Shown piece by piece: positions 24,702-41,077 of a DNA stretch of 64,000 bases. The DNA is from an uncultured Dehalococcoidales bacterium. GTDB lineage: Bacteria; Chloroflexota; Dehalococcoidia; Dehalococcoidales; BS750m-G39. Location of the stretch: the NCBI GenBank assembly GCA_964396965.1, contig CAYNGD010000001.1:67596-131595 (forward strand), read 5' to 3'. Below the pieces are notes generated by a model. The model was not told the DNA's origin, made no database searches, and worked only from the letters and a program-made list of their open reading frames with translations. The position numbers and the translations under genes were made by a program. The first letter of the stretch is position 1. Each line of letters begins with the position of its first letter.

Positions 24702-25349
24702 GTGAAGATTTCGGTAATCGAAGCCAGAGACCTCGCCGAGGCCTGGTTCCTCTGCCTGCGCCAGGCGCTGACCGAGGGGTATGACTACAGGATTGACCGC
24801 GGCAGCTATGCCGGCCAGCAACGCAAGGAGCTCGACTTCGTCGTGGTCAGGGTGAAGAACCCGGGAACCAGGCCGATAATACCATCAACGCCCCAGGGAG
24901 TGCCACCCCCCACCTCGATGGAATATATCGATGACTACCTCCCCTATTTAATGACCGCCCACAGGAGACAGGGCGAGCAATACACCTACGGCCAGTACCT
25001 GGAAAAGCAGATAGCCAAGGTAATCGAAATGTATAAGCGTGACGGCCACAACACCAACCAGGCTTTTATGGCGGTGGGCGACGCCGCATCAATAGACCTG
25101 ACCGACCCCCCCTGCCTCAGGGCGATAGACACCCGAATCCGGGACAACAAACTCCATTTCTTCGTCTACTTCCGCTCCTGGGACCTCTGGGCCGGCTTCC
25201 CCTCCAACCTGGCCGCCATCCAGATGCTAAAAGAATATATGGCCAGCGAGATTGGCGTTGACGACGGCGAGTTGATTGCCTCAAGCAAGGGTATGCACCT
25301 CTACGAGTACGCCTGGGAGCTGGCCAGGATTACCGCCAGAATGACCTAA
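24702..25349 (+). CDS. Thymidylate synthase (ThyA)-family protein, short archaeal-like type
   Basis: 215 aa, GTG start. DPPCLRAIDTRIRDNKLHFFVYFRSWDLWAGFPSNL matches the ThyA active-site Cys and RS-D core. It is shorter than a bacterial ThyA. Confidence 0.65.
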   Translation: MKISVIEARDLAEAWFLCLRQALTEGYDYRIDRGSYAGQQRKELDFVVVRVKNPGTRPIIPSTPQGVPPPTSMEYIDDYLPYLMTAHRRQGEQYTYGQYLEKQIAKVIEMYKRDGHNTNQAFMAVGDAASIDLTDPPCLRAIDTRIRDNKLHFFVYFRSWDLWAGFPSNLAAIQMLKEYMASEIGVDDGELIASSKGMHLYEYAWELARITARMT

Positions 25350-26645: not shown

Positions 26646-29600
26646 CTACCCCAGCCCGGCGATTATCAGCTCTATCTTGGTGATGTCAAGAGCGTTGACC
26701 ACGCCATCACCGTTGGCGTCGGCGCCGGAGGTCTCGACGTCCATACCGCCGATAATCCGCTCCAACTTGGTTATATCCAGGGCATTGACCACACCATCAC
26801 CGTTGGCGTCGCCCGGTGTCGCCGAGCTAATTTCCACCGAATCGCCCGCCCAGCTCGCCTCTATCTCCCCGGCCTGATTGTCGGAGAGAACGCCGTTGGA
26901 CAGGGTTATGGCGCTGCTGTCACCCTCGGAACCGACGACATGAAAGTGCAGTACTGATAGATAGCCGGAGCCGCTTACCCCGGCCACCCCGGGGACGTTC
27001 TGGATTACCCGGTACGTCCCCGAGCTTATCTCGTTGTACATGTCAACCGGCACTGTGGTCGAGCCTATCAGCCCCGGAGTTACCTCGTCCAGGCGCAGCA
27101 CCGTCGGGTCGAAGGTAACGTCGTAGTTGCCGGAGTCAAAGTCAGTTACCTCGGTGATATCGACGGCGGCAGTGAAGTCGCTGTCGTGAGCAGCGGTAGC
27201 CGGTGCGTCGATGCTGACGCTGACTCCGGGCTGGGCGCCGCTGACCTCCAGCGTCACCGGCACGGTGACCGAAGCCTCGTCGGGATCGTTGCTGGCGACG
27301 ATTATCTCGGCGTTATAGGTGCCGGCGCTGAGGCCGGTGGTATCTACGGTAACTGTTATCGGCTCGGAACCACCCGCCGCCACCGTGCCCGAAGTGGGGC
27401 TCTCGCTCAGCCAGGAGCAGTCCGGGTTAGTCACGCTGAAGCTGGCACTTGCCTCATCAAGCAGGGTCTGTCCCGAGACATAGACATCGGCAGTGATGGT
27501 ATAATCACCCAGCACCGCCTCCGCCGGCAGGCTGTAGGTGAAATTACAGCTGCTCACCTCGCCCGCCGCCACGGTTATCGCTGAGCTGTCCTCAAACACC
27601 GCTGCCCCCTCCGGGTCCGCCACATTAACGGTAACGGTGCCGTCGGTCAGGTCGGCATCACCGCCGTTGCCCACGTCAACATAGATGGTCACGTCTTGCT
27701 CGGCCAGGTAGCTGTCGCTGTCGGTAAAGAGGGTCACAATGCTCACCTCGGGAGAGCCGATTATGGCGCCGGTAGTCCCGTAATAGAAGATTACGTTCTG
27801 GGACTGGCCGGCGGAGAGAGTACCCAGCTCCCAGTACATGCCCACCGCGGTATCCGAGGTTATTGACTGGCCTGAGGTTATGGAATAGGCGAAGGGAGTA
27901 TAATAGATATCCGGCCAGTAGGCGAACTGCACCTTATAAGGCTTGTTGTTGGCGTCAAAGGTACAGTTGGAGGTCAGCGTTGGAGCGGACAGGCTGTCGG
28001 TGGCCTGCCAGTAGTTAAATACCGGATTATTGTACTCCTGCTCGGTGGTGACATCGCCCACCCCCGGCACGATAAAGGGAGCACCGTCGTTGTAGGCCAG
28101 CATGGTGTCGAGGAGAAAGCGTAGCTCTACATCGTGGCCGGCGCTGTCGTTATTGGTAATAGTAGCCTGGTATTTGGTGGTATTCGGCTGCAGGGTCAGC
28201 CTCAGTGAGACGCCGACATCAGTCGGCAGCGACCACTGCGTTATGATGCTGTCGCCGTCTATAGTGGGAGACTGGGTCACGTAGCTGTCCATCACCGAGA
28301 AATCCTGGTAGTAATCGCTGCCGTCCAGCCGCACCGTCATGTAGGAGCTCCAGGGATAGGGATAGCCGTAGAGCAGCAGCATCTCATCGGCGGTGGCCTC
28401 GGTATAGCGGCCAATGCCGTTGTAGTCGGGGAGGTCCTCAACCGAAATGCCCATGTCATAGTCAGTGTTGACCAGGTTCAGGGTACGGCTCTTCTCAGAG
28501 CTCTTCTCTTTTTTAAGCGCCGACGGGTTGCCCTCGGTGCCGTTCGGCCCTGAATCGCCGCCTGCCTCCTGGTCGCTGATGTCATAGCTGAGCTCGCCGC
28601 TGCCGTCGTTGCCGATGGTCAGGGTGTAGTCTTCGATAGTATCGGAGGGCAGGGTCATCTCAAAGCTGGCCGGAGAGACGGTGATATCGGCCACACCGGG
28701 GGTGGTGAAGAGGATGTCATAGAGGAAGGCGCCCCAGTGGGTATCGGTGCTGAAGAGGACGTCAGTCTCGTAGTCGGAGTAGTAGTTGTCCGAAGTCTCC
28801 GGGTAGTAGATGGATATGCCGTGAGAGCCAGCCATCGAGGCGGTGTGGCCCTCGGCGATAACGGCGTTGGTTACCGCCGTCATCACGTCAGCGGCAGCGT
28901 CCCTCACCGCCTGGCTGATGGTGGCATCCTGGTTTACCAGCTGGGCGAAGTGGTAGAGGTCAATGTAGTAGTAATAGTAGTACTCCTGCGCTGAACTCCT
29001 GGCCGTTTCAATGGCGTCCCAGTCGCCGGGGGCGTTGATCATGGCCTGGGCAAAGCTGTCAACCGCCGTCGACAACGCCTCCATATAGTCCAGGTTCACC
29101 GCCGACTGGGTTATGTCCCAGGAAGAGCTGTAGGAGTCCATGTAGTCATTGACTATCTGAGTGCCCAGCTCGGCGGGTGTCATCGCCGGGTCGGCGGCCA
29201 GAGCACCGAGGGTGGCGGCGTAGTCCCAGCCGTCGCCGGGCTCGGTCTCCTCCGAACCTATAGTTATGTCAACCATGGGAGAGTCAGCGCTGCCCATCAC
29301 CTGATAGGCCACCTCGGCCATCTGCATCAGGCAGGCGTCAAAGCCGAGGATATCCAGCGTCTGGCCGGTGCTGGCGTTGGCCTCGTCCAGGGCGCTGCGC
29401 AGTTCAGTCATGGTCAGCTCGTCGCCGGACTGGTCATCAATGCAGACGGACTTCACTGAATTGCCGCTCTCCTCCCTCTCCCGCCAGCCGCTGCCGTGGT
29501 TCCAGAGCACCAGGGCGTAGTGCCGGGCGGGGTAGCTGGTCACCGCCCACTCGATAAAGCTGGTAAGCACCGCCGGGTCGCCCATATTGACCTCGCCCAG

Positions 29601-31775
29601 GTCTGCCACCACCGGGGAGTTGATGATCGAAGTGTCAGCGTCCTGGGTGACGTAGAAGCGCTTGGCCCCGGTCCAGTTGCCGTTGCTGGTGTCATCGGAA
29701 GAGGCCTGTTCGGCGCGGTCCATCTGGACCACAATCTTGACGTTATCGGTAGAGCCGACGGTCTCCATCTCATTGAAATCGTCAATACCAGCGCTCTCCA
29801 GGTTGTTATCGGCGTCAAGATAGACCATAAACAGCCAGTCCGCCTCATAGTCGGCGGCGGTGGCAGCTATCGCCGCCTGTACATCAATCAGGCCGTAGCC
29901 GTCAATATCATCGTTGCTATCCGCCGAGCTGGCCGTTGACTGGAGCAGGCTTCTAACATCGGCGGGGTGTCCCTTCAGTTCCGGGTCGGCCTCGAGTAAC
30001 AGCGCCGCCGCCCCGGCGGCAATGGGAGAGGCCATACTGGTACCCTGCATCACGTAGTAGTCCGCCGGGCCGGAGCCGTTCAGGTCCAGGCCGTCGTTGT
30101 CAATAAAATAGGCGCTGGCACCGCCAGGCCAGGGATAGACATCCTGGTCGCGCGCCGAGATTATGGCGCTGCCCGGCGCCACAATATTCGGCTTCTGGGG
30201 TGCGCCGTCATCCACCCTCGGCCCGCGGCTGCTGAAATAGGCCATGGTGCCCACCGTCAGCTCGGGGTTGACAAAGTGATAGCTGGTCCCGTCATAGGCC
30301 GTCCAGTTCTTGCGGCTGGTGTAGGCGCCGACGGCGATGGCATCCTCGGCATCAGCCGGTGAACTAAGGGTGTAGAAGGGGTCGGGGCTGTGAAACTCCA
30401 CCGAAGCCCCGCCGCTGGCAATGCCATCAAAGTAGATGTGGAAGAACTGCTGATTATCCGAGTTGTTGGTCACCTTAAGGTAGTAGGTCGAGCTTCCCGA
30501 AGGCAGGTAGTAGTACCAGCCGGCTTCCGGGCCGTAGCCGGAAAGCTCATGCTCGGTGCCCTTCCAGCTCTCCTCCTGGTCACCCGCCCAGCTATTACCC
30601 AGAGCCGTCTGGGCGGAATCATAATAGGTCAGGGTCAGGTCGTTGCTCTCGGCCAGGCCGTCGAACCAGACCAGGTTGAAGCCCAGACCGGCATTACCGC
30701 CGGTGGAGCCAGTAACATCGACCTGGATAAAGCCGGTGGTGCTGTGAGCGCTGGCCGTGCCCGAGTAGTGCTCGCCAGCATCGGCATCATTACCCGCCGA
30801 GATAAAGACCACCGCCCCCTGGCTGAAGGCGTAGTCCACCGCCTGGGCGGTCTGTCTGGTGCCGTCATGGTAGTCCCCCCAGCCGCCGTAGCTCATGGTG
30901 ATGATATCGGCATCATAGGTATCCACCGCCGCCTTGATGGCGTTGGTCATGGCATCAAGCGAGGCGCTGCCGGTGGTATCGTTGCCAATCTTGAGAAAGA
31001 CAAGGTCGGCACCCGGGGCCATACCTTTATACTCACTGGCGGCCCCGGCGGACTGTGTTCCCCGCCCCAGCGCCGAGCCGGTGACATGGGTGCCGTGGCC
31101 GGTGACGCTGTTGGCGATGGTGTCGTCCAGCACCGGCCAGTTTGAGTAGTCCTTGCTGGCTACCGGCGCCGGGATATCGGGGTGGGAGGTGTCCAGGCCG
31201 GAATCGAGCACGGCTATCCTGACGCCCTCGCCGGTATAGCCCGAGCCCCAGACGTCGTCGGCGTTGATGGCGGCGGCGGCCAGGTCATTCTGGGGCTCCA
31301 GCATCTGCTCGGCGGTATCCAGCCGGGCGATATAGTCTTTAGTCGCTAATTCGCCGAGCCTATCTACCGGCATCTCGGCCACGATAAAGCCGGTGGGGAA
31401 CTCCCCTACCGGCGGTATCCAGGAGTCGGGGTAAGGGGTAACGCCGAGCGCCTCAAGCTCATTTAGCTGCTTGGCCGTCGGCTCCTGTGCCATGTGGATA
31501 AACACCCGCTGCGTCTCCAAGTCTCTAGTTTTCATACCTTTGGCCCGCATCACGCTCATATCAGCGGCAGCCAGCGGAAGCTGCTGGCAGCGCAGCTTGG
31601 CCTCCACCTGCAGAGCCAGCAGTGAGCTCACCTTGGCCTCTGGCTCAGGCTTAGAAAATGAAATCGCCTGAGGTTCATTTGGGGGTGGGGAAAGAGCCTG
31701 AACACCGGGCATAGTACCAAGGGTGAGTGCCAATAAAAGGGAAAAAACACCCAAAATCTTTAAGGGGGTTTTCAT
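26646..31775 (-). CDS. Giant secreted multidomain protease: propeptide, S8 subtilase, C11 clostripain-like domain, beta-sandwich modules, cohesin-like module, dockerin
   Basis: 1709 aa. AAGGAGG RBS and signal peptide MKTPLKILGVFSLLLALTLGTMPGVQA. S8 triad at D191 (AVLDSG), H227 (GHGTH), S580 (GTSMASP). C11 dyad at H760 (LWNHGSGW), C815 (GFDACLM). C-terminal cohesin-like and dockerin segments. Confidence 0.9.
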   Translation of the reverse strand: MKTPLKILGVFSLLLALTLGTMPGVQALSPPPNEPQAISFSKPEPEAKVSSLLALQVEAKLRCQQLPLAAADMSVMRAKGMKTRDLETQRVFIHMAQEPTAKQLNELEALGVTPYPDSWIPPVGEFPTGFIVAEMPVDRLGELATKDYIARLDTAEQMLEPQNDLAAAAINADDVWGSGYTGEGVRIAVLDSGLDTSHPDIPAPVASKDYSNWPVLDDTIANSVTGHGTHVTGSALGRGTQSAGAASEYKGMAPGADLVFLKIGNDTTGSASLDAMTNAIKAAVDTYDADIITMSYGGWGDYHDGTRQTAQAVDYAFSQGAVVFISAGNDADAGEHYSGTASAHSTTGFIQVDVTGSTGGNAGLGFNLVWFDGLAESNDLTLTYYDSAQTALGNSWAGDQEESWKGTEHELSGYGPEAGWYYYLPSGSSTYYLKVTNNSDNQQFFHIYFDGIASGGASVEFHSPDPFYTLSSPADAEDAIAVGAYTSRKNWTAYDGTSYHFVNPELTVGTMAYFSSRGPRVDDGAPQKPNIVAPGSAIISARDQDVYPWPGGASAYFIDNDGLDLNGSGPADYYVMQGTSMASPIAAGAAALLLEADPELKGHPADVRSLLQSTASSADSNDDIDGYGLIDVQAAIAATAADYEADWLFMVYLDADNNLESAGIDDFNEMETVGSTDNVKIVVQMDRAEQASSDDTSNGNWTGAKRFYVTQDADTSIINSPVVADLGEVNMGDPAVLTSFIEWAVTSYPARHYALVLWNHGSGWREREESGNSVKSVCIDDQSGDELTMTELRSALDEANASTGQTLDILGFDACLMQMAEVAYQVMGSADSPMVDITIGSEETEPGDGWDYAATLGALAADPAMTPAELGTQIVNDYMDSYSSSWDITQSAVNLDYMEALSTAVDSFAQAMINAPGDWDAIETARSSAQEYYYYYYIDLYHFAQLVNQDATISQAVRDAAADVMTAVTNAVIAEGHTASMAGSHGISIYYPETSDNYYSDYETDVLFSTDTHWGAFLYDILFTTPGVADITVSPASFEMTLPSDTIEDYTLTIGNDGSGELSYDISDQEAGGDSGPNGTEGNPSALKKEKSSEKSRTLNLVNTDYDMGISVEDLPDYNGIGRYTEATADEMLLLYGYPYPWSSYMTVRLDGSDYYQDFSVMDSYVTQSPTIDGDSIITQWSLPTDVGVSLRLTLQPNTTKYQATITNNDSAGHDVELRFLLDTMLAYNDGAPFIVPGVGDVTTEQEYNNPVFNYWQATDSLSAPTLTSNCTFDANNKPYKVQFAYWPDIYYTPFAYSITSGQSITSDTAVGMYWELGTLSAGQSQNVIFYYGTTGAIIGSPEVSIVTLFTDSDSYLAEQDVTIYVDVGNGGDADLTDGTVTVNVADPEGAAVFEDSSAITVAAGEVSSCNFTYSLPAEAVLGDYTITADVYVSGQTLLDEASASFSVTNPDCSWLSESPTSGTVAAGGSEPITVTVDTTGLSAGTYNAEIIVASNDPDEASVTVPVTLEVSGAQPGVSVSIDAPATAAHDSDFTAAVDITEVTDFDSGNYDVTFDPTVLRLDEVTPGLIGSTTVPVDMYNEISSGTYRVIQNVPGVAGVSGSGYLSVLHFHVVGSEGDSSAITLSNGVLSDNQAGEIEASWAGDSVEISSATPGDANGDGVVNALDITKLERIIGGMDVETSGADANGDGVVNALDITKIELIIAGLG
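26649..26813 (-). other. Dockerin (two Ca-binding repeats)
   Basis: GDANGDGVVNALDITKLERIIGG...ADANGDGVVNALDITKIELIIAGLG. This is a duplicated D-x-N-x-D-G-x-x-N-x-x-D loop plus helix. Confidence 0.8.
26814..27227 (-). other. Cohesin-like module inside the protease
   Basis: 138 aa (VSVSIDAPATAAHDSDFTAAVDITEVTDFDSGNYDVTFDPTVLRL...YLSVLHFHVVGSEGDSSAITLSNGVLSD). It is a paralog of the three modules in 36596-39313. Confidence 0.65.
28895..29843 (-). other. Clostripain-like (peptidase C11) domain of the 1709-aa protein
   Basis: WLFMVYLDADNNLE, then H760 (29496-29498) in WNHGSGW and C815 (29331-29333) in FDACLM. The C-terminal domain boundary is approximate. Confidence 0.7.
29856..31262 (-). other. 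Subtilase (peptidase S8) domain of the 1709-aa protein
   Basis: Catalytic codons are D191 at 31203-31205, H227 at 31095-31097 and S580 at 30036-30038 (checked against the DNA). A large insert of about 250 aa lies between the oxyanion Asn and Ser. Confidence 0.85.
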
Positions 31776-31909
31776 AGCTGCCTCCTTTTAATTTGTGGAC
31801 AGTTGTGCACCAGTATAGCACATTTTTTGCCCACTGTCAACGAAAAGAGGCGCTAATTTATAGTACTTTTGGGTGACTGTTGGGCAACTTAAGGCAACTT
31901 TGGCGCCTT

Positions 31910-32635
31910 TTAGGCCAGCGGCTCTGAAGCTTGCTCGGCAGAGTCCAGCCGGACTATGTAGGCCTTACCCATCAGCTCGTCGAGCTTATCTATGGGCATA
32001 TCAGCCACCAGAAAGCCGGCAGCAGGCCCTCCTGCGGTGGCTATCCAGGAATCGAGGTAAGGGGTAACGCCGAGCGCCTCAAGCTCTTTTAGCTGCCCCG
32101 CCGTAGGCTCCTGGGCCAGGTGGATAAACACCCGCTGCATTGTCAGGTCGGCTGTGTTCATACCCATCGTCTGCATCTGCTCCAGCCTCTCCGGGGTGGG
32201 ATCAGCCAGCTGCTGCCGCCTTAAGTCTATCTGGAGCAGGAGCCGGCTGGTGGCCTTGGTCGCCTCTACCTCTACTTCTTCAGCCACCAGATAGGGCTCA
32301 CCCTCATCAGTCAGCTCAATGCGTCCGGTAACCTTTATCGGACGGCCGATATCATCCATGGGGTTAAGGTCGCCAGCCGCTTTCCCGCTAACGTAGAGCC
32401 AGCCGGTGTCGTCTTCAACCAGCCAGTCGCTGCGCGTTAGCGGCGGACTGCCGTGACCCTCCTTCCAGCCCTGATACACCCCCTCAACGGCGACCGTCTG
32501 CCCCCGGTAATGGCTGGGGTCGGCCCTTATCTCCCCGATGGTGGCCCCGGCGGGAGGGGTTGGCGGGCAGGCGGTCACCAGCAGGACAGCCAGCAGCGCC
32601 AGTATAACCAGTTTGCCATTCAATAATCTGCGCAT
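31910..32635 (-). CDS. Lipoprotein with a C-terminal copy of the protease propeptide (I9-inhibitor-like)
   Basis: 241 aa. Lipobox LLVTAC. The C-terminal ~110 aa (QRVFIHLAQEPTAGQLKELEALGVTPYLDSWI...FLVADMPIDKLDELMGKAYIVRLDSAEQ) aligns with aa 60-165 of the neighbouring protease. Confidence 0.75.
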   Translation of the reverse strand: MRRLLNGKLVILALLAVLLVTACPPTPPAGATIGEIRADPSHYRGQTVAVEGVYQGWKEGHGSPPLTRSDWLVEDDTGWLYVSGKAAGDLNPMDDIGRPIKVTGRIELTDEGEPYLVAEEVEVEATKATSRLLLQIDLRRQQLADPTPERLEQMQTMGMNTADLTMQRVFIHLAQEPTAGQLKELEALGVTPYLDSWIATAGGPAAGFLVADMPIDKLDELMGKAYIVRLDSAEQASEPLA

Positions 32636-32711: not shown

Positions 32712-33410
32712 TTAGTATGCCCGGCTTCTGGCCACTATGAAGGCGATAATCAGCCCCAACAGAACCACGCCGCCGATTACCAGCCAGAGGACCGGCACAC
32801 CGCCGACGCCGTTTGAAGGCGCTGGCGGCGGCAGCGGTGCTGAGGCGCCGGTATCCGGTGGTGTTGAGCCACCAGCGTCAGGGGGCGTCGAGCCGCCGGT
32901 ATCCGGTGGTACTGAACTGCCGGTATCCGTGGGTGCCGGGGCAGTTACATCTGGTGGCGTCGAGCCGCCGGTGTCCGGTGGTGTTGTGTTAATTGGTTCC
33001 TCGGGCTCTTCGGGGGTAGCGCTTTCCTCTATGGTTGCCGACAGGTCTAGTTCGGTCACCTCGCCGCTGTGCCACTGGGCGGTCTGCCCGGTAGAGAAAC
33101 CGTTGACATAGAAGGTCACGGTAGCCCCTTCGGCGATGTCCCCCTGGACAATGAGCTTGGGCTCCAGCGGGTCGGCGCCGCCGCCGTACTCACCCTCAAC
33201 GGTAATCTCTATCGGGTTGTTGCCAACCCCGGTGGTAACCCCCTCTCCTCTCGCCTCGACCTCGGTCCCCACCGGCGCCGGGCTGCCGTTTATCTCGACG
33301 GTACCGTAGAAGGCGTGGGGCAGCGCCGGGGCATTATCAGCATAGGCCGGGCTGACCGCCGTCGCCAGCAACACCGCCAGAAGAATAAAGGCAAACATCT
33401 TCGTTTTCAT
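32712..33410 (-). CDS. Secreted, C-terminally anchored protein with a Pro/Thr-rich stalk
   Basis: 232 aa. Signal peptide ...AVSPAYA, an N-terminal domain ALPHAFYGTVEINGSPAPVGTEVEA (also at the N-terminus of 39447-40949), TPPDTGGSTPPD repeats, and a C-terminal TM helix. Confidence 0.8.
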   Translation of the reverse strand: MKTKMFAFILLAVLLATAVSPAYADNAPALPHAFYGTVEINGSPAPVGTEVEARGEGVTTGVGNNPIEITVEGEYGGGADPLEPKLIVQGDIAEGATVTFYVNGFSTGQTAQWHSGEVTELDLSATIEESATPEEPEEPINTTPPDTGGSTPPDVTAPAPTDTGSSVPPDTGGSTPPDAGGSTPPDTGASAPLPPPAPSNGVGGVPVLWLVIGGVVLLGLIIAFIVARSRAY

Positions 33411-36500: not shown

Positions 36501-36575
36501 AAAAGGGGAAAGTGCCATGCCCAGAACAATCAGGACAGGCACCAGTATCCTATAAATCGTTTTTACTTTCCCCAT
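33507..36575 (-). CDS. Large secreted right-handed beta-helix protein (putative S-layer or wall protein), paralog 1
   Basis: I trimmed the track ORF to the ATG at 36575 (MGKVKTIYRILVPVLIVLGMALSPFMAVETARA), which removes the overlap with the upstream gene. It has PbH1-type repeats (ISGNTFTNGG, ITISGNTITGQKGKGIYLAG, ITGNTITSATSYG) and is collinear with 41078-44251. Confidence 0.8.
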   Translation of the reverse strand: MGKVKTIYRILVPVLIVLGMALSPFMAVETARASSVSNAWVELSDGTALNSTGTALEYVIHFTTTTALSGGRDTITVSFPNGSTDMAGEEGSEYAFDLPASIDKDYVAVDPDGALTTTTGYTDCYADPDVGTYRVRLTVPEDIAAGASPYIKFETGADITSAAQSKTESGDLCFYRVKVETSQDTVPVYSEYFYLGSTAVSGVDHLTGYPNPATVGTAAGYKFEFTVGSSGALTGGSGTITVIFPSGTTVPASASMSYVQVDADGSAGTYSLTPCTVDPACHPASRTVTLTVPQSVADDANVYVYFTAGFGLVNPTESASAAKVKIFTSAEPQYATAATGYAVTSGNATKLGFANVNGTYSDDATMINMYSSTIYLQLQDQYRNIKAPGSDLTASLSSTSATGRFYSAADSQISSATLYDGTGDPDGTTAGQFSFLYKDTTAGTHTITATAGGYTQASWTITVAPAVALYDTSDELVGSYSPTATAPVVESASANSGDYVQNAINDALPGETVRLGDGIYELDTALTVAKAITLESASGAAVTLRPTTTLAQAIEITATGSATYGVTIDGITFERLRSGTVFTDGIYNSSADYFTIQNCVFSYIYNQGIRLVSTSAAFTEGTISGNTFTNGGGDPPASTDAAVDVRASASYAVSSITISGNTITGQKGKGIYLAGNSSTYTVSSITITGNTITSATSYGLQGDTYTATVSVTGNSLTGGYSDGIYVSGTAYTIKKNVITGNLGDGVDVELTSSSHLINYNDIYDNTGYGVYVPSSVSTVDGRYNWWGDASGPSYTAATGASVTVSNPEGTGENITDRVTYYEWLYKPIADVIADNAAYYCRAVSLNVGWNTLSAPIILDSSTDTVGEVVDLDKVVIAYWYDAADADDDGSYWEQVTADYELAPCDAIYIKMNAADSVLLKYNAVDISLPTRQLYAGWNLIGLASLETKPVDDAVQSVANTPTNLPGYSQVISPSMNSQDWTYSYGQSYTDEDMLVGEGYWIYMQNDCTLVGFTVTPVEPSLD

Positions 36576-36595
36576 ATCGTTAGTAAGCCTCAACT

Positions 36596-39313
36596 CTAAT
36601 GAGTTCTTCTCCTTGTGGCCAGCCACAGGATAATCACACCGACTACGATTACGCCGGCCATTGTTCCCCAGATGATTGGCCAGTTGATGGTCGGTTTCAC
36701 CGGGGTTTCCGGCGGCGTGGTCGTTTCCGGCGGTTTCTCGGCAACGATGAAGGAAGCGCTGAGACCGCCGACCTCCACCGAGTAGGTGCCAGCCACATCC
36801 TTTAACGTGTTGAAGGTCTCCTCCTCACTGGCATCGGCGTCAAGCGATATATCCCTGGTCTCCTCCACCTCACCGTTTATCTTTAGTCTCAGCGTATAGC
36901 TACCGGCGGCATCGCCGTTGTTGGTAACCAGCACGCTGATTTTAACCGCCTCCCCGACATATACCTTGCCCGGAGAGACCGAGAGCTGGCCGGCGGTGAA
37001 AGCGGACTCCCCCGGCAGGGTGGTGAAGGTGTGCTCCTCGGACTCAGCCAGGTTGCCCGCAGCGTCGGCTGACCTGACCTGGAAGTAGTAGTTGCTGCCC
37101 GGCTTCAGCTCATCAAGGTGGATGTTATGCTGGGTGACCAGCGTGGTATCCAGGGGGGTAGTCACCGGCGGGCTGGCCCAGTACTTCACCTGGCTGTCAC
37201 TAGCCTCATTGGTGCTCCAGGCGATATCGGCACTGGTCTTGGTAACGCCGGACACCCCTACCCCGGAAATTATCGGGGGTGTGGTATCCGCTGGTGCCCC
37301 ACCACCACCGCCGCCTCCTCCGCCTCCCCCACCCCCACCACCGCCGGACGGCCGGGTGATAGTCACCGAATCGGCGACCCATACCGCCGCTATCGCCTGG
37401 GCCTGGGTGCTGGAAAGCGTGCCGTTGGTGAGGTTTATAACGCTGACATCACCCGCGGCGCCGATAACATGAAAGTCCAACGCCGACAGGTAGCCGGAGC
37501 CGGTGGCCCCGTCCAGGCCGGGCACATTCTGGACCACCCGGAATGTCCCGGCGGAAAGCTCGTTGTAGATGTCAACCGGTACTTCGATTGAGCCTATCTC
37601 ACCGGCGGTGACATCGTCCAGCCGCAGCACCGAGGCATCAAAGCTGACGTCGTACTGGCAGGCGTCAAAGTCGGTCACGTCGCTGATGCTGACATTGGCG
37701 GTGAAGTCGCTGCCGGCCTTCGGCCCATCCGGCGCGTCAACGCTGACCAAGACCGTTCCCGGCGGTATAGATTCGGTGGTAAAGCTCCAGGAATAGGCCG
37801 CGGCTAAATGATTGCCGGCGGCATCGGTGATGGTGGTGCTTAAACTGGCAGTGTAGGCGGTGTCATAGGCCAGGTTTGCCGCCGGGGTAAAGGTGGCGGT
37901 ATAGCTACCACTATTATAGGAAACACTACCTGATACAGGCGTGGAGCCAATCTTCAGGCTAAAGCTGCTGGTGGTGATGGTGGACTGGTCCAGCGCCTCG
38001 CTGAAGGTGGCCGTTATCACACTGTCCACGGCCACGTCGGTGGCATCAGACGCCGGTGAGGTGCTGATCACCGTGGGAGGTACTAAATCAGCAATCGCCA
38101 CCGTGCCTCCGCTCCATACCGCCTCTATAGCCTGGGCCTGGACGTCGGAGAGCACACCGTTGGACAGGTCTATTGAGCTGACATCGCCCTCGGTGCCGAT
38201 AACATGAAAGTGCAGCACCGCCAGGTAGCCGGAGCCGGTGACACCGGATAGGCCGGGAACGTTCTGGATTACCCGGAATGTCCCGGCGGAAAGCTCGTTG
38301 TAGATGTCAACCGGCACCGCGGTCGAGCCTATCAGCCCCGAACTAACGTTGTCCAGCCGCAGCACCGCCGCGTCAAAGCTGACATCGTACTGGCAGGCAT
38401 CAAAGTCAGTTATGCCGCTGATAGCGACATTGGCGGTAAAGTCGCTGTCGGCGGTGGCTTCAGCCGGTGCGTCAATGCTGACGGTAACCACCCCTGGCTC
38501 AGAACCGGTGGTAAAGCTCCAGGAATAGGCCGCGGCTAAATGATTGCCGGCGGCATCGGTGATGGTGGTGCTTAAACTGGCAGTGTAGGCGGTGTCATAG
38601 GCCAGGTTTGCCGCCGGGGTAAAGGTGGCGGTATAGCTACCACTATTATAGGAAACACTACCTGATACAGGCGTGGAGCCAATCTTCAGGCTAAAGCTGC
38701 TGGTGGTGATGGTGGACTGGTCCAGCGCCTCGCTGAAGGTTGCCGTTACCGTTGTATCTACCGCCACACCACTGGCTCCGCTGGCCGGTGAGGTGCTGGC
38801 CACGGTGGGTGCCGTTAAATCGGAAACGGTGACGCTATCGCCCGTCCAAGTGGCCGCTATCGGGCTGGCAGTAATATCACTGAGCACGCCGTTGGACAGG
38901 TCTATGGCGCTACTCTCACCCTCGGCGCCGAGAACATGGAAGTGCAGCACCGCCAGGTAGCCGGAGCCGGTGACACCGGATAGGCCGGGCACGTTCTGGA
39001 TTACCCGGTAGTTACCGGCGGAAAGCTCGGTGTAGAGGTCAACCGGCACCGCGGTCGAGCCTATCAACCCCGAACTAACGTTGTCCAGCCGAAGCACTGA
39101 GGCATCAAAACTGACGTCGTACTGGCAGGCGTCAAAATCGGTCACGTCGCTGATGCTGACATTGGCGGTAAAGTCGCTGTCGGCGGCGGCCTCAGCCGGT
39201 GCGTCAATGCTGACGGCGGCTTCTCCCTGCGCTAACACCGGGAACAGCGCCCCACCCCCCAGAAACAGAGCCACAATGGCTACTAAGCCCAGAATCTTCG
39301 CTATCCTTCCCAT
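36596..39313 (-). CDS. Membrane-anchored scaffoldin-like protein: 3 cohesin-like modules, 2 Ig-like modules, Gly16 linker, FN3, CARDB-like domain, TM anchor
   Basis: 905 aa. Signal peptide MGRIAKILGLVAIVALFLGGGALFPVLAQG, modules as listed separately, and a C-terminal PT linker plus TM helix (IIWGTMAGVIVVGVIILWLA) and RRRTH. Confidence 0.85.
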   Translation of the reverse strand: MGRIAKILGLVAIVALFLGGGALFPVLAQGEAAVSIDAPAEAAADSDFTANVSISDVTDFDACQYDVSFDASVLRLDNVSSGLIGSTAVPVDLYTELSAGNYRVIQNVPGLSGVTGSGYLAVLHFHVLGAEGESSAIDLSNGVLSDITASPIAATWTGDSVTVSDLTAPTVASTSPASGASGVAVDTTVTATFSEALDQSTITTSSFSLKIGSTPVSGSVSYNSGSYTATFTPAANLAYDTAYTASLSTTITDAAGNHLAAAYSWSFTTGSEPGVVTVSIDAPAEATADSDFTANVAISGITDFDACQYDVSFDAAVLRLDNVSSGLIGSTAVPVDIYNELSAGTFRVIQNVPGLSGVTGSGYLAVLHFHVIGTEGDVSSIDLSNGVLSDVQAQAIEAVWSGGTVAIADLVPPTVISTSPASDATDVAVDSVITATFSEALDQSTITTSSFSLKIGSTPVSGSVSYNSGSYTATFTPAANLAYDTAYTASLSTTITDAAGNHLAAAYSWSFTTESIPPGTVLVSVDAPDGPKAGSDFTANVSISDVTDFDACQYDVSFDASVLRLDDVTAGEIGSIEVPVDIYNELSAGTFRVVQNVPGLDGATGSGYLSALDFHVIGAAGDVSVINLTNGTLSSTQAQAIAAVWVADSVTITRPSGGGGGGGGGGGGGGGGAPADTTPPIISGVGVSGVTKTSADIAWSTNEASDSQVKYWASPPVTTPLDTTLVTQHNIHLDELKPGSNYYFQVRSADAAGNLAESEEHTFTTLPGESAFTAGQLSVSPGKVYVGEAVKISVLVTNNGDAAGSYTLRLKINGEVEETRDISLDADASEEETFNTLKDVAGTYSVEVGGLSASFIVAEKPPETTTPPETPVKPTINWPIIWGTMAGVIVVGVIILWLATRRRTH
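37298..37345 (-). other. Poly-glycine (16 x Gly) linker
   Basis: Sixteen consecutive GGN codons using mixed synonymous codons, flanked by RPS and APADTTPP. Confidence 0.95.
37358..37753 (-). other. Cohesin-like module 3 (aa 521-652), the most diverged
   Basis: VLVSVDAPDGPKAGSDFTANVSISDVTDFDACQYDVSFDASVLRLDDVTAGEIGSIEVPVD... Confidence 0.65.
37775..38011 (-). repeat. Coding repeat unit (Ig-like module), identical copy 1
   Basis: About 237 nt that read identical by eye to 38507-38743, at an offset of 732 nt (244 codons). Confidence 0.85.
38093..38488 (-). other. Cohesin-like module 2 (aa 276-407)
   Basis: Same pattern as module 1 (VTVSIDAPAEATADSDFTANVAISGITDFDACQYDVSFDAAVLRLDNV...). Confidence 0.65.
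38507..38743 (-). repeat. Coding repeat unit (Ig-like module), identical copy 2
   Basis: See 37775-38011. A third, diverged copy lies in the next gene at about 39948-40195. Confidence 0.85.
38822..39217 (-). other. Cohesin-like module 1 (aa 33-164)
   Basis: VSIDAPAEAAADSDFTANVSISDVTDFDACQYDVSFDASVLRLDNVSSGLIGSTAVPVD...GYLAVLHFHVLGAEGESSAIDLSNGVLSD. Confidence 0.65.
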
Positions 39314-39446: not shown

Positions 39447-40949
39447 TTAATCCAGGCCGGCAATAATCCTCTCCACCTTGGTAATATCCAGGGCGTTGAC
39501 CAAGCCGTCTTGGTTGGCATCAGCCCCGCCTGTTTCCGCATCCAGCCCGGCGATAATCCTCTCCACCTTGGTAATGTCCAGGGCGTTGACCTCGCCGTCC
39601 TCGTTGGCATCCCCCGGAATCACTGTAGATGACACCGTGAAGGTATCAGTGGCGTAGTTTGCCTCAGCCGTGGTGTTATGAGCAGTATCAGTGGCCCGGA
39701 CATATACCGTGTGCTCCGCATAGGAAAGCTCAGCGGTGGTAAAGGTATAGCCCTCGCTAAGGCTGTCAAAAGCACCATCACTGGCAGCAGCCACAATCCA
39801 GCTGCCATCATCAACCTTGTACTCCACCCCGGCAATATTGCTTTGGCTATCGGTAGCCGTCCCGGTGAAGGTCGGCGTAGTATCAGAGGTGGTGCCAATG
39901 CCGTTTATCGTGACCGAGGGTGGTGTAGTATCCGGTCCGGTGCCGGTGGTAAAGCTCCAGCTGGAGGCTGATGCCAGGGCGTTGCCGGCGGCATCGGTGA
40001 TGGCGGTGCTTAAGCTGGCGGTATAGGTGGTGCTCGAAGCCAGGGTGGCACTCGGGGTAAAGGTGGCAGTATAGCTACCACTATTATAGGAAACACTACC
40101 TGATACCGGCGTGGAGCCGGTCTCCAGACTAAAGCTGCCGGTGGTAATGGTCGAGGCATCCATCGCCTCGCTGAAGGTGGCCGTTACCGCTGTGGTTATT
40201 GGTACATTGGTCTGCCCGGAAGTCGGGTATCGGCTGGCCACGGTGGGCGCGGTGGTATCAACGGTAAAGCTGTCACTGGCGTATTGATCCTCGGTGTTGG
40301 TGTTACCCTGGGAATCGGTCGAACGGACATATACCGTATAACCTCCGTCAGCCAGCGCCGGTATGGTGAAGGTGTATTCCTCGCTGGGACTGTCGAAGGC
40401 ACCGTCAACGGCAGTAGCCGCCGTCCAGACCCTCCAGCTCCCGGCACCAACCTGGTACTCCACCGAGGTGATGTTGCTCAGGGCATCGGTAGCAGTACCG
40501 GTAAAGGTTGGGGTGTTGTCGTTGGTGGGGTCGGGGCTGAGCGGGATTATATCCACCACTGGCGGGGTAATATCAGTAGTAATCGCCAGGTTATGCTCGG
40601 TTACCGCCCCCGGGCTGAAGGTGTAGTCATATGACCGGCCGGTGTCGTACCCATTGATAAAAAAGGATATGGTAGCCCCGGTCTCAATCTCACCGGTGAC
40701 GGTAAGCTTGGGGTCAAAGGCACCCGAGCCGCCGTACTGGCCGGCCACAGTAGTAGTGATGCTGCCGCACTGCACGTCATTTACCTTAGCCGTGACCACC
40801 GTCCCTACCGGGGCCGGAGAACTACCTATCGTCAGTGTCCCATAGAAGGCGTGGGGTAGAGTCGGTATATCGGCATAGGCAGGGATGGCACAGAGGAATA
40901 GCGCCGCTACTATCAAAGGGCAGAGGAGCCATTTTCTCATCTTTTTCAT
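39447..40949 (-). CDS. Secreted dockerin-bearing protein with Ig-like modules
   Basis: I trimmed the track ORF to the ATG at 40949 (GGGAGGG upstream; MKKMRKWLLCPLIVAALFLCAIPAYA). N-terminal PHAFYGTLTIGSSPAPVGTVV domain, two TPTFTGTATD Ig-like modules, one SbsA-type Ig module, and a C-terminal dockerin. Confidence 0.85.
   Translation of the reverse strand: MKKMRKWLLCPLIVAALFLCAIPAYADIPTLPHAFYGTLTIGSSPAPVGTVVTAKVNDVQCGSITTTVAGQYGGSGAFDPKLTVTGEIETGATISFFINGYDTGRSYDYTFSPGAVTEHNLAITTDITPPVVDIIPLSPDPTNDNTPTFTGTATDALSNITSVEYQVGAGSWRVWTAATAVDGAFDSPSEEYTFTIPALADGGYTVYVRSTDSQGNTNTEDQYASDSFTVDTTAPTVASRYPTSGQTNVPITTAVTATFSEAMDASTITTGSFSLETGSTPVSGSVSYNSGSYTATFTPSATLASSTTYTASLSTAITDAAGNALASASSWSFTTGTGPDTTPPSVTINGIGTTSDTTPTFTGTATDSQSNIAGVEYKVDDGSWIVAAASDGAFDSLSEGYTFTTAELSYAEHTVYVRATDTAHNTTAEANYATDTFTVSSTVIPGDANEDGEVNALDITKVERIIAGLDAETGGADANQDGLVNALDITKVERIIAGLD
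39450..39614 (-). other. Dockerin (two Ca-binding repeats)
   Basis: GDANEDGEVNALDITKVERIIAGLDAETGGADANQDGLVNALDITKVERIIAGLD. Confidence 0.8.
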
Positions 40950-41002
40950 ATTTCCCTCCCCAGTTTCTTTCTTGTTTCCATCCCCAATGTTTACTAAAGT
41001 TA

Positions 41003-41038
41003 TGGGGGAGGGGGAGTTGGGGGTCCCCCTCCCCCATC
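41003..41038 (-). other. 14-bp-stem G/C hairpin between the beta-helix gene and the dockerin gene
   Basis: ATGGGGGAGGGGGA-GTTGGGGG-TCCCCCTCCCCCAT. The arms are perfectly complementary and there is no U-tract, so it may be an intra-operon processing or pausing element. Confidence 0.5.
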
Positions 41039-41077
41039 CTAAGTCAGCCAACCATGTTCACCATCAGTAAGGCTGTT

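What the first reader, a model, noticed from the sequence alone, without database searches (positions are those of the whole stretch)
26646..31775. Single polypeptide fusing a subtilase and a clostripain-like cysteine protease, with both a cohesin and a dockerin
Seen in sequence:
- There is a complete S8 triad (D191 AVLDSG, H227 GHGTH, S580 GTSMASP; I verified the codon positions in the DNA).
- It is followed directly by a C11-type His/Cys dyad (WNHGSGW at H760, GFDACLM at C815).
- About 750 aa of beta-rich modules come next, then a cohesin-like module, then a dockerin.

Two catalytic classes on one chain is uncommon. A protein with both a cohesin and a dockerin could daisy-chain with itself or act as an adaptor between the anchored scaffoldin and other dockerin proteins.

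The S8 domain also has an unusually large insert (about aa 335-510) between the oxyanion Asn and the catalytic Ser.
Basis: partly seen in the sequence, partly recalled or inferred. Interest (0 to 1): 0.65.

Follow-up and report, generated by a model that had tools for sequence, protein, structure and literature searches.

The report
Two-headed surface protease with cohesin and dockerin
An uncultured sediment bacterium (most likely Dehalococcoidia) encodes one secreted 1709-residue protein that joins an intact subtilisin-type serine protease to an intact clostripain-type cysteine protease and ends in a cohesin plus a dockerin, so it probably plugs into a cellulosome-like, membrane-anchored protein scaffold encoded next door; the design is real and conserved but has not been described in the papers I could search.

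Summary
The gene lies on the minus strand (26646-31775, 1709 aa). It encodes a signal peptide, an I9-like prodomain, Peptidase_S8 (D191/H227/N329/S580) and Peptidase_C11 (H760/D813/C815). These are followed by Ig-like modules, an unknown 245-aa module, a cohesin and a dockerin.

It is not an assembly artefact. About 46 protein clusters from independent assemblies share the same junction, and both catalytic sets are invariant in them.

The "large insert" in S8 is a Csp-type jellyroll domain, at the same insertion point as in the clostridial germination proteases.

The C11 part keeps the clostripain S1 Asp. It also keeps basic residues at both clostripain linker-excision sites, and the linker between them is variable and disordered in the model.

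The fusion is rare: 4 of about 185,000 species representatives, all but one labelled Dehalococcoidia or Dehalococcoidales. More distant S8-C11 fusions exist, including an archaeal one, as do M14+C11, C1+C11 and S8+C11+C1 proteins.

The neighbourhood encodes a membrane-anchored three-cohesin scaffoldin and a second dockerin protein. The gene just upstream encodes a lipoprotein carrying a free-standing copy of the protease's own prodomain.

The most likely function is a cell-surface-tethered, dual-specificity endopeptidase for extracellular protein. This is a new variant of known kinds, of moderate interest.

The parts
31812..31840 (-). Promoter-like site TTGACA-17-TATACT with an upstream TG. 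A Shine-Dalgarno sequence AAAGGAGG follows, ending 5 nt before the ATG at 31775.
   Evidence: It matches 11 of 12 consensus positions. This is a consensus match only, not evidence of function.
31695..31775 (-). Signal peptide, aa 1-27 (MKTPLKILGVFSLLLALTLGTMPGVQA|L).
   Evidence: Read from the sequence: basic n-region, hydrophobic core and a VQA cleavage motif. Inferred; no predictor was run.
31281..31694 (-). N-terminal pro-region, aa 28-165. It has two helices followed by a beta-alpha-beta-beta-alpha-beta (I9/fervidolysin-N-pro-like) prodomain. The likely autoprocessing site is near aa 157-165.
   Evidence: AF2 secondary structure, with a disordered segment at aa 157-163. Foldseek matches to pro-subtilases 3whi, 3afg and 1r6v. 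There is no Pfam hit.
30780..31280 (-). Subtilase (S8) catalytic domain, N-terminal part, aa 166-332, with D191, H227 and the oxyanion N329.
30363..30779 (-). Csp-type beta jellyroll domain inserted into the subtilase domain just after the oxyanion Asn, about aa 333-471.
   Evidence: All-beta with high pLDDT. A profile of this region matches the C. difficile/C. perfringens Csp proteases colinearly across the whole insertion, E 1e-6. Csp proteases are top structural matches. Single-sequence Pfam finds nothing.
29841..30362 (-). Subtilase catalytic domain, C-terminal part, aa 472-645, with S580 (GTSMASP).
28701..29840 (-). Clostripain-family (C11) cysteine protease domain, aa 646-1025, with H760, the S1-pocket D813 and C815. 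It starts about 8 residues after the last S8 helix.
   Evidence: Pfam full-length match. Clostripain 9cip: E 8e-32 by sequence and TM 0.71 by fold. Residues are invariant in the clade.
29451..29483 (-). Clostripain-like activation linker, R765...K775. The basic residues align with clostripain R181 and R190. The segment between them is variable and is predicted to be disordered.
   Evidence: pLDDT below 50 at aa 769-774. That it is cleaved is inferred.
28485..28700 (-). Short Ig-like segment and a low-complexity Lys/Ser/Glu-rich linker, aa 1026-1097.
   Evidence: Sequence. The model here has low confidence.
27747..28484 (-). Conserved beta-rich module of about 245 aa with unknown fold and function, aa 1098-1343.
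   Evidence: No Pfam match and no PDB match. Outside the clade there are only 23 relatives, mostly stand-alone proteins of 325-425 aa.
27246..27746 (-). Two Ig-like spacer modules: CARDB/MG2/NPCBM_assoc-like (aa 1344-1449) and BACON/HYDIN-like (aa 1450-1510).
   Evidence: Pfam matches near threshold. AF2 pLDDT is 70-90 for the first module.
26841..27245 (-). Cohesin module, aa 1511-1645.
   Evidence: Pfam 34 bits against a cut-off of 24. It is 61-70% identical to the three scaffoldin cohesins. A profile of this cohesin family hits solved cohesins, ScaB 3l8q at E 2e-7.
26649..26840 (-). Dockerin, aa 1646-1709. It has two near-identical repeats, DANGDGVVNALDITK(L/I)E(R/L)II, with canonical Ca-binding positions D1, N3, D5, N9 and D12.
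   Evidence: Pfam E 5e-10. Motif scan.
31910..32635 (-). Upstream partner gene encoding a 241-aa lipoprotein (lipobox VTAC). Its C-terminal 115 aa are a free-standing copy of the protease's prodomain, and it ends close to the predicted pro/mature junction.
   Evidence: 57% identity, E 2e-37. It is syntenic in 4 related genomes. It is also found upstream of S8-only relatives, including Dehalogenimonas sp. THU2.
32712..33410 (-). 232-aa protein with a signal peptide, an N-domain shared with the 534-aa dockerin protein, a TPPD-rich stalk and a C-terminal TM anchor. It sits upstream of the lipoprotein gene in the related genomes too.
36596..39313 (-). Membrane-anchored scaffoldin, 905 aa: signal peptide, Coh-Big_5-Coh-Big_5-Coh, a long poly-Gly run, fn3, CARDB and a C-terminal TM helix followed by RRRTH.
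39447..41051 (-). Second dockerin-bearing protein, 534 aa (Big_13/Big_5 modules plus a dockerin very like the protease's).

Best explanation
The gene encodes a secreted, cell-surface-tethered compound endopeptidase of an uncultured sediment bacterium, most likely Dehalococcoidia.

Shown:
- One reading frame carries a complete Csp-like subtilase: prodomain, catalytic domain and a jellyroll insert.
- It is fused, with almost no linker, to a complete clostripain-family protease.
- Ig-like spacers, an unknown module, a cohesin and a dockerin follow.
- Both catalytic sets are invariant across the clade, and the two domains are about equally conserved.

Inferred:
1. The protein is exported by Sec.
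2. The subtilase folds on its prodomain and cuts it off near aa 157-165.
3. The C11 domain activates itself as clostripain does, by cutting after R765 and K775 and freeing a disordered linker. The S1 Asp813 gives it Arg/Lys specificity.
4. The two heads then cut proteins at complementary sites: broad for S8, after basic residues for C11.
5. The dockerin fixes the enzyme to one of the three cohesins of the neighbouring membrane-anchored scaffoldin.
6. The enzyme's own cohesin offers a further docking site, for the 534-aa dockerin protein or for another copy of the protease. Peptides are thus released at the cell surface.
7. The upstream lipoprotein, which carries a spare copy of the prodomain, acts as a membrane-tethered I9-type inhibitor or chaperone of the subtilase head.
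For: Architecture and residues.

Both triad and dyad are invariant in 44-47 of 47 aligned clade sequences (the window protein plus 46 homologues). R765 is R/K in 46 of 46 and K775 is K in 44 of 47, while the linker between them varies.

Alignment to clostripain 9cip puts R765 and K775 at clostripain R181 and R190, and D813 two residues before the catalytic Cys. That R181 and R190 are the linker-excision sites, and that Asp229 is the S1 determinant, is my own knowledge of clostripain.

AF2 model of aa 28-1030: pLDDT 83, disordered exactly at aa 157-163 and aa 769-774. Foldseek: clostripain TM 0.71, subtilisins TM about 0.87, Csp proteases among the top matches.

The jellyroll insert is colinear with the Csp insert.

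Mean identity to the window protein within the clade is 70% for the prodomain, 88% and 80% for the two S8 parts, 79% for the insert and 79% for C11.

Cohesin and dockerin. Scaffoldin with three cohesins and a C-terminal TM anchor.

Synteny is conserved in four genomes. The cohesin-dockerin tail is present in 32 of 46 clade members.

Prodomain-copy lipoprotein. A free-standing propeptide-like protein is a potent subtilase inhibitor in Plasmodium (PMC6993865, by title and abstract).

The gene has its own promoter-like site and a strong SD sequence.

Clostripain-type activity was the most active extracellular peptidase measured in Baltic subsurface sediment (PMC8485070).
Against: - No activity, processing or binding was measured.
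- pTM is only 0.63, so the relative placement of the two heads is uncertain.
- The C-terminal 690 aa modelled poorly (pLDDT 48).
- Csp proteases, the closest structural relatives of the S8 head, are specific processing enzymes that keep their prodomain bound (PMC3567191). This argues against taking broad digestive activity for granted.
- No peptide transporter lies in the window. The ABC system at 45.8-49.7 kb looks like a PBP_like_2 phosphate-type system.
- The cohesin Pfam score is modest (34 bits).
Confidence: 0.65

Rival explanations
1. It is a dedicated maturation or processing protease for the surface structure encoded around it (the giant beta-helix proteins, anchors and scaffoldin), not a nutritional enzyme. 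The Csp-like S8 head would be a specific convertase kept in check by retained or spare prodomains.
For: - The closest structural and sequence relatives of the S8 head are the Csp proteases, which activate one substrate and retain their prodomain (PMC3567191).
- The order beta-helix protein / TM-anchored protein / prodomain lipoprotein / protease / cohesin proteins is conserved in four genomes.
- A dedicated inhibitor-like partner suggests tight control.
Against: - Relatives of the C11 head are widespread stand-alone secreted enzymes in sediment archaea and bacteria.
- The same S8 subfamily is attached to dozens of different binding modules in Chloroflexota, which looks like substrate capture.
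- Two heads with complementary specificity fit bulk proteolysis better than a single cleavage.
Confidence: 0.2
2. One head serves only the other. For example, the subtilase cuts the C11 activation linker (or the C11 removes the S8 prodomain), so only one head acts on external substrates. Alternatively, the chain is cut at the junction after export, so that only the C11 head stays on the scaffold.
For: - The fusion is very tight, with a junction of about 8 residues of conserved length.
- The CspBA fusion is cut at its junction by another protease (PMC3567191).
Against: - The cleavage-site residues are Arg/Lys, which suits C11 self-cleavage.
- A sibling protein with the same S8 head but no C11 (P0046) exists, as do stand-alone C11 relatives, so each head works alone elsewhere.
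- The junction is moderately confident in the model, not a floppy linker.
Confidence: 0.1
3. The fusion is an assembly or frameshift artefact joining two neighbouring genes.
For: None was found. It is the obvious null hypothesis for a metagenome-derived contig.
Against: - The frame is uninterrupted over 5130 nt.
- About 46 independent clusters from four data sources have the same junction.
- Four species-representative genomes carry it.
- One homologue has the identical length at 88% identity.
Confidence: 0.01

Closest known systems
Clostripain (Hathewaya histolytica; MEROPS C11; PDB 9cip) and the Bacteroides/Parabacteroides C11 enzymes (6n9j, 3uws)
   Same: - Full-length C11 fold and the His/Cys dyad.
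- An Asp two residues before the catalytic Cys (S1 pocket).
- Basic residues at both clostripain linker-excision positions, flanking a disordered linker.
   Different: - It is only about 25% identical to clostripain.
- It scores far below the NCBIfam clostripain equivalog cut-off (117 against 550 bits).
- It is fused behind a subtilase and carries a cohesin-dockerin tail.
- Its nearest stand-alone relatives (45-51% identical) are in sediment archaea and bacteria.
Csp germination subtilases of clostridia (CspB 4i0w, CspC 6mw4, CspA 9pr9)
   Same: - Prodomain plus a subtilase domain interrupted by a beta jellyroll of about 130-140 aa, at the same point after the oxyanion Asn (PMC3567191).
- CspBA is also a two-protease-domain fusion.
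   Different: - The organism is probably not a spore former.
- The protein is secreted and surface-tethered.
- The second domain is a cysteine protease, not a second subtilase.
- Whether the prodomain stays bound is unknown.
Adaptor scaffoldins and non-cellulosomal cohesin-dockerin proteins (Acetivibrio cellulolyticus ScaB, Ruminococcus flavefaciens ScaA, Archaeoglobus fulgidus and ANME proteins)
   Same: - Cohesin and dockerin sit on one chain.
- A neighbouring multi-cohesin anchored scaffoldin is present.
- ANME archaea also have dockerin-plus-multi-cohesin proteins with no link to cellulose (PMC9012536).
- The nearest PDB cohesins are from ScaB.
   Different: - The cargo is a pair of proteases, and no glycoside hydrolase or CBM lies in the cluster.
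- The anchor is a C-terminal TM helix, not SLH or a sortase signal.
- The protease's cohesin belongs to the same sequence family as the scaffoldin cohesins (60-80% identical). Adaptor scaffoldins, by contrast, use a different cohesin type from the one their dockerin binds (my own knowledge).
Free-standing propeptide-like (I9) subtilase inhibitors (POIA1, yeast PBI2, the Plasmodium SUB1 inhibitor)
   Same: The upstream lipoprotein ends in a copy of the cognate prodomain that stops near the processing site. POIA1-subtilisin (1v5i) is among the fold matches of the S8 head. Precedent: PMC6993865.
   Different: - Here the copy is bacterial and lipid-anchored.
- It is encoded directly upstream of its presumed target.
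- It is fused to an extra N-terminal domain.
- Inhibition has not been tested.

Membership tests
Subtilases (MEROPS S8 / Pfam PF00082) | Asp-His-Ser triad in that order within the D(S/T)G, HGTH and GTSMA(S/T)P motifs, plus the oxyanion Asn. | tested here: met
   D191, H227, N329 and S580. They align to the Tk-SP and subtilisin catalytic residues. They are invariant in the clade.
Subtilases (MEROPS S8 / Pfam PF00082) | Profile score above the curated threshold, and the subtilisin fold. | tested here: met
   142.6 bits against a cut-off of 21.8. Foldseek TM about 0.87 normalised to subtilisin.
Subtilases (MEROPS S8 / Pfam PF00082) | Serine-protease activity, PMSF-sensitive. | not testable with these tools
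   Needs the recombinant enzyme.
Csp-like subtilases | A beta jellyroll domain interrupting the subtilase domain after the oxyanion Asn. | tested here: met
   The profile of aa 322-520 aligns colinearly with CspA, CspC and CspB through the whole insertion, E 1e-6 to 8e-3. The region is all-beta with high pLDDT.
Csp-like subtilases | The prodomain is retained after autoprocessing, and the enzyme acts in spore germination. | not testable with these tools
   No biochemical data. I saw no sporulation genes in the window, but I did not look for them specifically.
Clostripain family (MEROPS C11 / Pfam PF03415) | Catalytic His then Cys on a caspase-like alpha/beta fold, and a profile score above threshold over the full model. 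| tested here: met
   201 bits against a cut-off of 25.8, model positions 1-356 of 359. H760 and C815 align to the clostripain NHGGG and FDACLM motifs. TM 0.71 to 9cip.
Clostripain family (MEROPS C11 / Pfam PF03415) | Orthology to clostripain itself (NCBIfam TIGR02806 equivalog). | tested here: not met
   116.9 bits against a cut-off of 550. It is a member of the family, not a clostripain ortholog.
Clostripain family (MEROPS C11 / Pfam PF03415) | Autocatalytic cleavage after basic residues in the loop following the catalytic His, and Arg/Lys specificity through the S1 Asp. | tested here: inconclusive
   R765, K775 and D813 are conserved and the loop is disordered. Cleavage itself was not observable.
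Cohesin (PF00963) | Profile score above threshold and relatedness to solved cohesins. | tested here: met
   34.2 bits against a cut-off of 24.1. It is 61-70% identical to the scaffoldin cohesins, which together score 112 bits. All top PDB hits of the family profile are cohesins.
Dockerin type I (PF00404) | Two repeats of about 22 residues, each a Ca-binding loop (D/N at positions 1, 3, 5, 9 and 12) followed by a helix. | tested here: met
   Repeats at aa 1656 and 1686. Pfam 39.9 bits against a cut-off of 22.9.
Cohesin-dockerin complex | Ca-dependent binding of this dockerin to a cohesin of the same organism. | not testable with these tools
   No multimer prediction or binding assay was available.
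Cellulosome | A scaffoldin with several cohesins that is anchored to the cell. | tested here: met
   The 905-aa protein has three cohesins and a C-terminal TM helix.
Cellulosome | Dockerin-bearing carbohydrate-active enzymes, and a carbohydrate-binding module on the scaffoldin. | tested here: not met
   Only two dockerin proteins are in the window, the protease and a Big_5/Big_13 protein. No GH or CBM family was found. The system is cellulosome-like in assembly only.

The most novel reading that the evidence does not exclude
Dehalococcoidia, which are reported to lack a peptidoglycan wall (my own knowledge), build a cohesin-dockerin "proteolysome". In it, two-headed S8-C11 proteases with a cohesin-dockerin tail polymerise head-to-tail from a membrane-anchored three-cohesin scaffoldin. 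A lipid-anchored spare copy of the subtilase prodomain protects the cell's own surface. This would be a protein-degrading counterpart of the cellulosome in one of the most abundant subseafloor lineages.
Probability: 0.3. Interest if true: 0.75.

Novelty: new variant of a known kind. Interest (0 to 1): 0.55.

Why it matters
Clostripain-type activity is among the strongest extracellular peptidase signals measured in subsurface sediments (PMC8485070), and Dehalococcoidia are major inhabitants there (my own knowledge). A surface-tethered enzyme that combines a serine head and an Arg/Lys-specific cysteine head would give these cells a way to keep both the enzymes and their products close by in a diffusion-limited habitat.

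It also extends three ideas:
- The Csp-type jellyroll subtilase, described as unique to clostridial germination proteases (PMC3567191), is a widespread secreted subfamily in Chloroflexota.
- Cohesin-dockerin assembly is used for proteases, with a cohesin-dockerin tail that could build chains.
- Bacteria may pair a subtilase with a lipid-anchored copy of its own prodomain.

The compact S8-C11 unit and its natural docking tail could also be of practical use as a dual-specificity protease module.

Tried and rejected
- **Plus-strand reading:** the plus strand at the stated coordinates gives only stop-ridden translation; the gene is on the minus strand.
- **Misassembly:** rejected.
- **PA-domain or PPC identity for the S8 insert:** single-sequence Pfam gave nothing. 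A profile search identified it as the Csp jellyroll instead.
- **AF2 of the C-terminal 690 aa:** pLDDT was 48, too poor for a fold search, so none was run.
- **The 245-aa module (aa 1098-1343):** no Pfam, no PDB match (best E 0.34) and only 23 unannotated relatives. Its function remains unknown.
- **Single origin of all S8-C11 fusions:** a rough neighbour-joining tree of 138 C11 domains did not group the fusions apart from stand-alone C11s. The tree has no support values, so origin (single or repeated) stays open.
- **Literature:** no paper in the searched library combines Dehalococcoidia with cohesin and dockerin, clostripain with subtilisin and Dehalococcoidia, or Peptidase_C11 with Peptidase_S8. 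Peer et al. 2009 (PMC3035643) could not be read.
- **RNA genes:** no tRNA or Rfam match in the window.
- **Model coordinates:** not exposed, so catalytic distances and active-site accessibility could not be measured.
Full report
**1. What is there.** The coordinates hold a single ORF on the minus strand, 26646-31775, 1709 aa, starting with ATG. The plus strand is full of stops. On the minus strand, a near-consensus promoter-like site (TTGACA-17-TATACT with an upstream TG) lies at 31840-31812. A strong AAAGGAGG Shine-Dalgarno sequence ends 5 nt before the start codon.

Pfam finds the following:
- Peptidase_S8: E 2e-41, split into two stretches.
- Peptidase_C11: E 4e-59, model positions 1-356 of 359, aa 651-1018.
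- Weak Ig-like matches (MG2, NPCBM_assoc, BACON_2): aa 1349-1507.
- Cohesin: 34 bits against a cut-off of 24, aa 1519-1640.
- Dockerin_1: E 5e-10, aa 1654-1699.

The oxyanion Asn is N329.

**2. It is not an artefact.** A search of 5.8 billion proteins returned about 46 clusters (P0002-P0047, 66-88% identical) with the same S8-C11 order. They come from JGI, ENA, NCBI and Logan assemblies, and one has the same 1709-aa length. In an alignment of the 47 sequences, every catalytic residue of both domains is invariant in 44-47 of them. The shortfalls are truncated sequences, plus one Ser at C815. The junction (…GYGL(I/L)D(V/I)QAA…(A/V/L)DWLFMVYLDADNNLE) keeps the same length throughout. Mean identity to the window protein is 88% and 80% for the two parts of S8, 79% for the insert and 79% for C11. 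Neither head is decaying.

**3. The subtilase head.** The best sequence matches among solved structures are Tk-SP and the classical subtilisins, with the triad aligned. An AlphaFold2 model of aa 28-1030 (84-sequence alignment, mean pLDDT 83, pTM 0.63) shows two features:
- a beta-alpha-beta-beta-alpha-beta prodomain preceded by two helices, followed by a disordered stretch at aa 157-163, the likely processing site;
- an all-beta, high-confidence domain inside the subtilase.

Foldseek places the C. difficile CspA and CspC structures just after clostripain. A profile of aa 322-520, built from 14 relatives, matches CspA, CspC and CspB. The alignment runs from the AGN oxyanion motif through the whole insertion to the DP(F/Y)YT…PA…I(A/S)VGAY strand, at E 1e-6. 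The "unusually large insert" is therefore the Csp-type jellyroll, about aa 333-471. Adams et al. described that domain as a unique feature of Csp proteases that rigidifies the enzyme and helps autoprocessing (PMC3567191). The same S8 subfamily, at 50-60% identity and attached to many different binding modules, is abundant in proteins labelled Chloroflexota, Dehalococcoidia or Dehalogenimonas.

**4. The clostripain head.** It starts about 8 residues after the last S8 helix. It aligns over its full length with clostripain 9cip (E 8e-32; TM 0.71). H760 aligns with the clostripain NHGGG motif and C815 with FDACLM. Asp813 is two residues before the Cys. R765 and K775 align with clostripain R181 and R190. 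From my own knowledge of clostripain, Asp229 sets Arg specificity, and R181 and R190 are where the linker nonapeptide is excised on activation. In the clade, R765 is R/K in 46 of 46 and K775 is K in 44 of 47, while the residues between them vary in sequence and length. The model is disordered exactly there, at aa 769-774. Self-activation and Arg/Lys specificity are therefore well-founded inferences, not observations. The protein is a family member, not a clostripain ortholog (NCBIfam equivalog 117 against 550 bits).

**5. The tail.** After C11 come a short Ig-like piece and a charged linker. Next is a strongly conserved beta-rich module of about 245 aa (aa 1098-1343) with no Pfam or PDB match and only 23 unannotated relatives elsewhere. 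Two Ig-like modules, the cohesin and the dockerin follow.
- The cohesin is 61-70% identical to the three cohesins of the neighbouring scaffoldin.
- A profile of eleven such cohesins hits only cohesins in the PDB (ScaB 3l8q, E 2e-7).
- The dockerin has two nearly identical repeats with canonical Ca-binding positions. It closely resembles the dockerin of the 534-aa neighbour.
- The second AF2 job, on aa 1020-1709, was too poor to use (pLDDT 48).

**6. Neighbourhood.** The window is chromosomal. It carries an ilv/leu operon, RtcB, a PBP_like_2 phosphate-type ABC transporter (PstSCAB-like) and DnaE.

From 44.3 to 26.6 kb, all on the minus strand, lie these genes:

| Window coordinates | Product |
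|---|---|
| 41078-44251 | beta-helix giant, 1057 aa |
| 39447-41051 | Big_13/Big_5 protein with a dockerin, 534 aa |
| 36596-39313 | scaffoldin, 905 aa: signal peptide, Coh-Big_5-Coh-Big_5-Coh, poly-Gly, fn3, CARDB, C-terminal TM helix + RRRTH |
| 33507-36626 | second beta-helix giant, 1039 aa |
| 32712-33410 | TM-anchored protein, 232 aa |
| 31910-32635 | lipoprotein, 241 aa |
| 26646-31775 | the protease |

The window holds four cohesins and two dockerin proteins, and no carbohydrate-active enzyme.

The order TM-anchored protein / lipoprotein / protease is kept in four related genomes; beta-helix genes lie upstream and cohesin-only or cohesin-dockerin genes downstream in the two loci whose gene tables I read. 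In one of these genomes the same cohesin-dockerin tail also ends two beta-propeller proteins, and a 237-aa single-cohesin protein has the same C-terminal TM anchor. Of the 46 clade members, 32 end in cohesin-dockerin, 12 in dockerin alone, one lacks both (it appears truncated) and one has only a fragmentary cohesin match. All these cohesins form one sequence family at 60-80% identity. Nothing therefore argues against the protease's dockerin binding its own kind of cohesin. Head-to-tail chains or an adaptor role are plausible but untested.

**7. An unreported partner.** The C-terminal 115 aa of the upstream lipoprotein are 57% identical (E 2e-37) to the protease's own prodomain, aa 48-161. The lipoprotein stops a few residues past the position of the predicted pro/mature junction (…LDSAEQASEPLA* against …LDTAEQMLEPQND…). 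The pair is conserved in all four fusion genomes. It is also conserved next to P0046, a sibling with the same S8 head but no C11, and next to a 50%-identical S8-only protein of Dehalogenimonas sp. THU2. Free-standing propeptide-like proteins are known subtilase inhibitors in eukaryotes (for example PMC6993865). I infer a membrane-tethered inhibitor or chaperone acting in trans.

**8. Distribution.** Among about 185,000 species-representative genomes, only four carry the junction. Three are labelled Dehalococcoidia or Dehalococcoidales and one is labelled Deltaproteobacteria. All other hits start at the C11 domain. I did not test the window's own taxonomy with marker genes, so the Dehalococcoidia assignment rests on these labels and on the labels of the S8-only relatives.

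The nearest stand-alone C11 proteins are 45-51% identical and come from Theionarchaea, Methanofastidiosia, Atribacterota, Bathyarchaeia, Thermoplasmata and others.

An exhaustive scan of 1.84 billion cluster representatives with a junction-spanning query found further, distant S8-C11 fusions whose S8 lacks the jellyroll. These are P0245, P0264, P0267 and the cluster of P0127, whose full-length member is MEA3283310.1 from a "Euryarchaeota archaeon". Other combinations also exist:
- M14 + C11 (P0263);
- C1 + C11 (P0269);
- S8 + C11 + C1 (P0267);
- C11-C11 tandems.

Compound proteases built around this C11 clade are thus a recurring but undescribed theme. None of my literature searches found a paper on them or on cohesin-dockerin systems in Dehalococcoidia.

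The most likely function (confidence about 0.65) is a surface-tethered, dual-specificity endopeptidase. It would dock on a membrane-anchored scaffoldin and be controlled by its own prodomain and a spare lipid-anchored copy. The main rival (about 0.2) is a processing protease for the neighbouring surface proteins.

The finding is a new variant of known kinds. Every module belongs to a known family, but the combination, its Csp-like subtilase, the cohesin-dockerin tail on a protease and the paired prodomain lipoprotein are not described in the literature I could search. Clostripain-type activity is prominent in subsurface sediments (PMC8485070), which gives the finding ecological weight. Interest is moderate (0.55).

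Noticed in passing
window 31910-32635 (-): A 241-aa lipoprotein whose C-terminal 115 aa are a 57%-identical free-standing copy of the protease's prodomain. The same pairing occurs upstream of S8-only relatives, including one from Dehalogenimonas sp. THU2 (L066 5509-5982) and P0046 (L067 533-1285).
   Followed up: yes
window 36596-39313 (-): A 905-aa scaffoldin with three cohesins alternating with Big_5 domains, a long poly-Gly run, fn3, CARDB and a C-terminal TM helix followed by RRRTH. This is a multi-cohesin anchored scaffoldin in a bacterium with no cellulolytic genes nearby.
   Followed up: partly
window 33507-36626 (-) and 41078-44251 (-): Two paralogous proteins of about 1040-1060 aa. 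Each has a shared N-terminal region, a central right-handed beta-helix and a shared C-terminal domain ending in …TP(V/I)(E/V)P(S/D)LD. Neither has a cohesin or a dockerin. They may be S-layer or adhesin components. The GTG start listed at 36626 overlaps the scaffoldin's stop, so the true start is probably a downstream Met.
   Followed up: no
window 32712-33410 (-) and 39447-41051 (-): The 232-aa TM-anchored protein and the 534-aa dockerin protein share an N-terminal domain of about 120 aa (…LPHAFYGT…NG(F/Y)…TG…) of unknown function. The C-terminal TM anchor (GGVPVLWL…ARSRAY) of the 232-aa protein is the same as on the single-cohesin anchor protein in L001 15247-15960.
   Followed up: partly
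P0027-P0045 (homologues of the window protein): Many clade members replace the window's middle modules with an alpha-macroglobulin TED-like / squalene-hopene-cyclase-like alpha/alpha toroid (PF07678, PF13243). A thioester-domain-like module on a protease chain is unexpected.
   Followed up: no
P0267, P0263, P0269, P0242, P0249, P0260 (metagenomic proteins): Other compound proteases built on the same C11 clade: S8+C11+papain C1+dockerin, M14 carboxypeptidase+C11, C1+C11 and C11-C11 tandems.
   Followed up: partly
window 27747-28484 (-) (aa 1098-1343): A strongly conserved beta-rich module of about 245 aa with no Pfam or PDB relative. It also occurs as rare stand-alone proteins of 325-425 aa (P0381-P0402).
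   Followed up: partly
L002 17041-24044: In an uncultured Dehalococcoidales genome, a full gas-vesicle gene cluster (GvpA, F/L, G, O, K, N-like AAA) lies about 3 kb downstream of the homologous protease locus.
   Followed up: no
L001/L003 (JAUVYB010000006.1): The MAG with the closest genome-collection homologue of the protease (82% identity over the S8-C11 junction region) and shared flanking genes is labelled "Deltaproteobacteria bacterium". The other three carriers, and the S8-only relatives, are labelled Dehalococcoidia or Chloroflexota. This is probably a taxonomic mislabel.
   Followed up: no
window 24702-25349 (+): A short (215-aa) thymidylate-synthase-like ORF matching only the C-terminal part of the Pfam model, next to a radical SAM gene. 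The pair is syntenic in L001.
   Followed up: no
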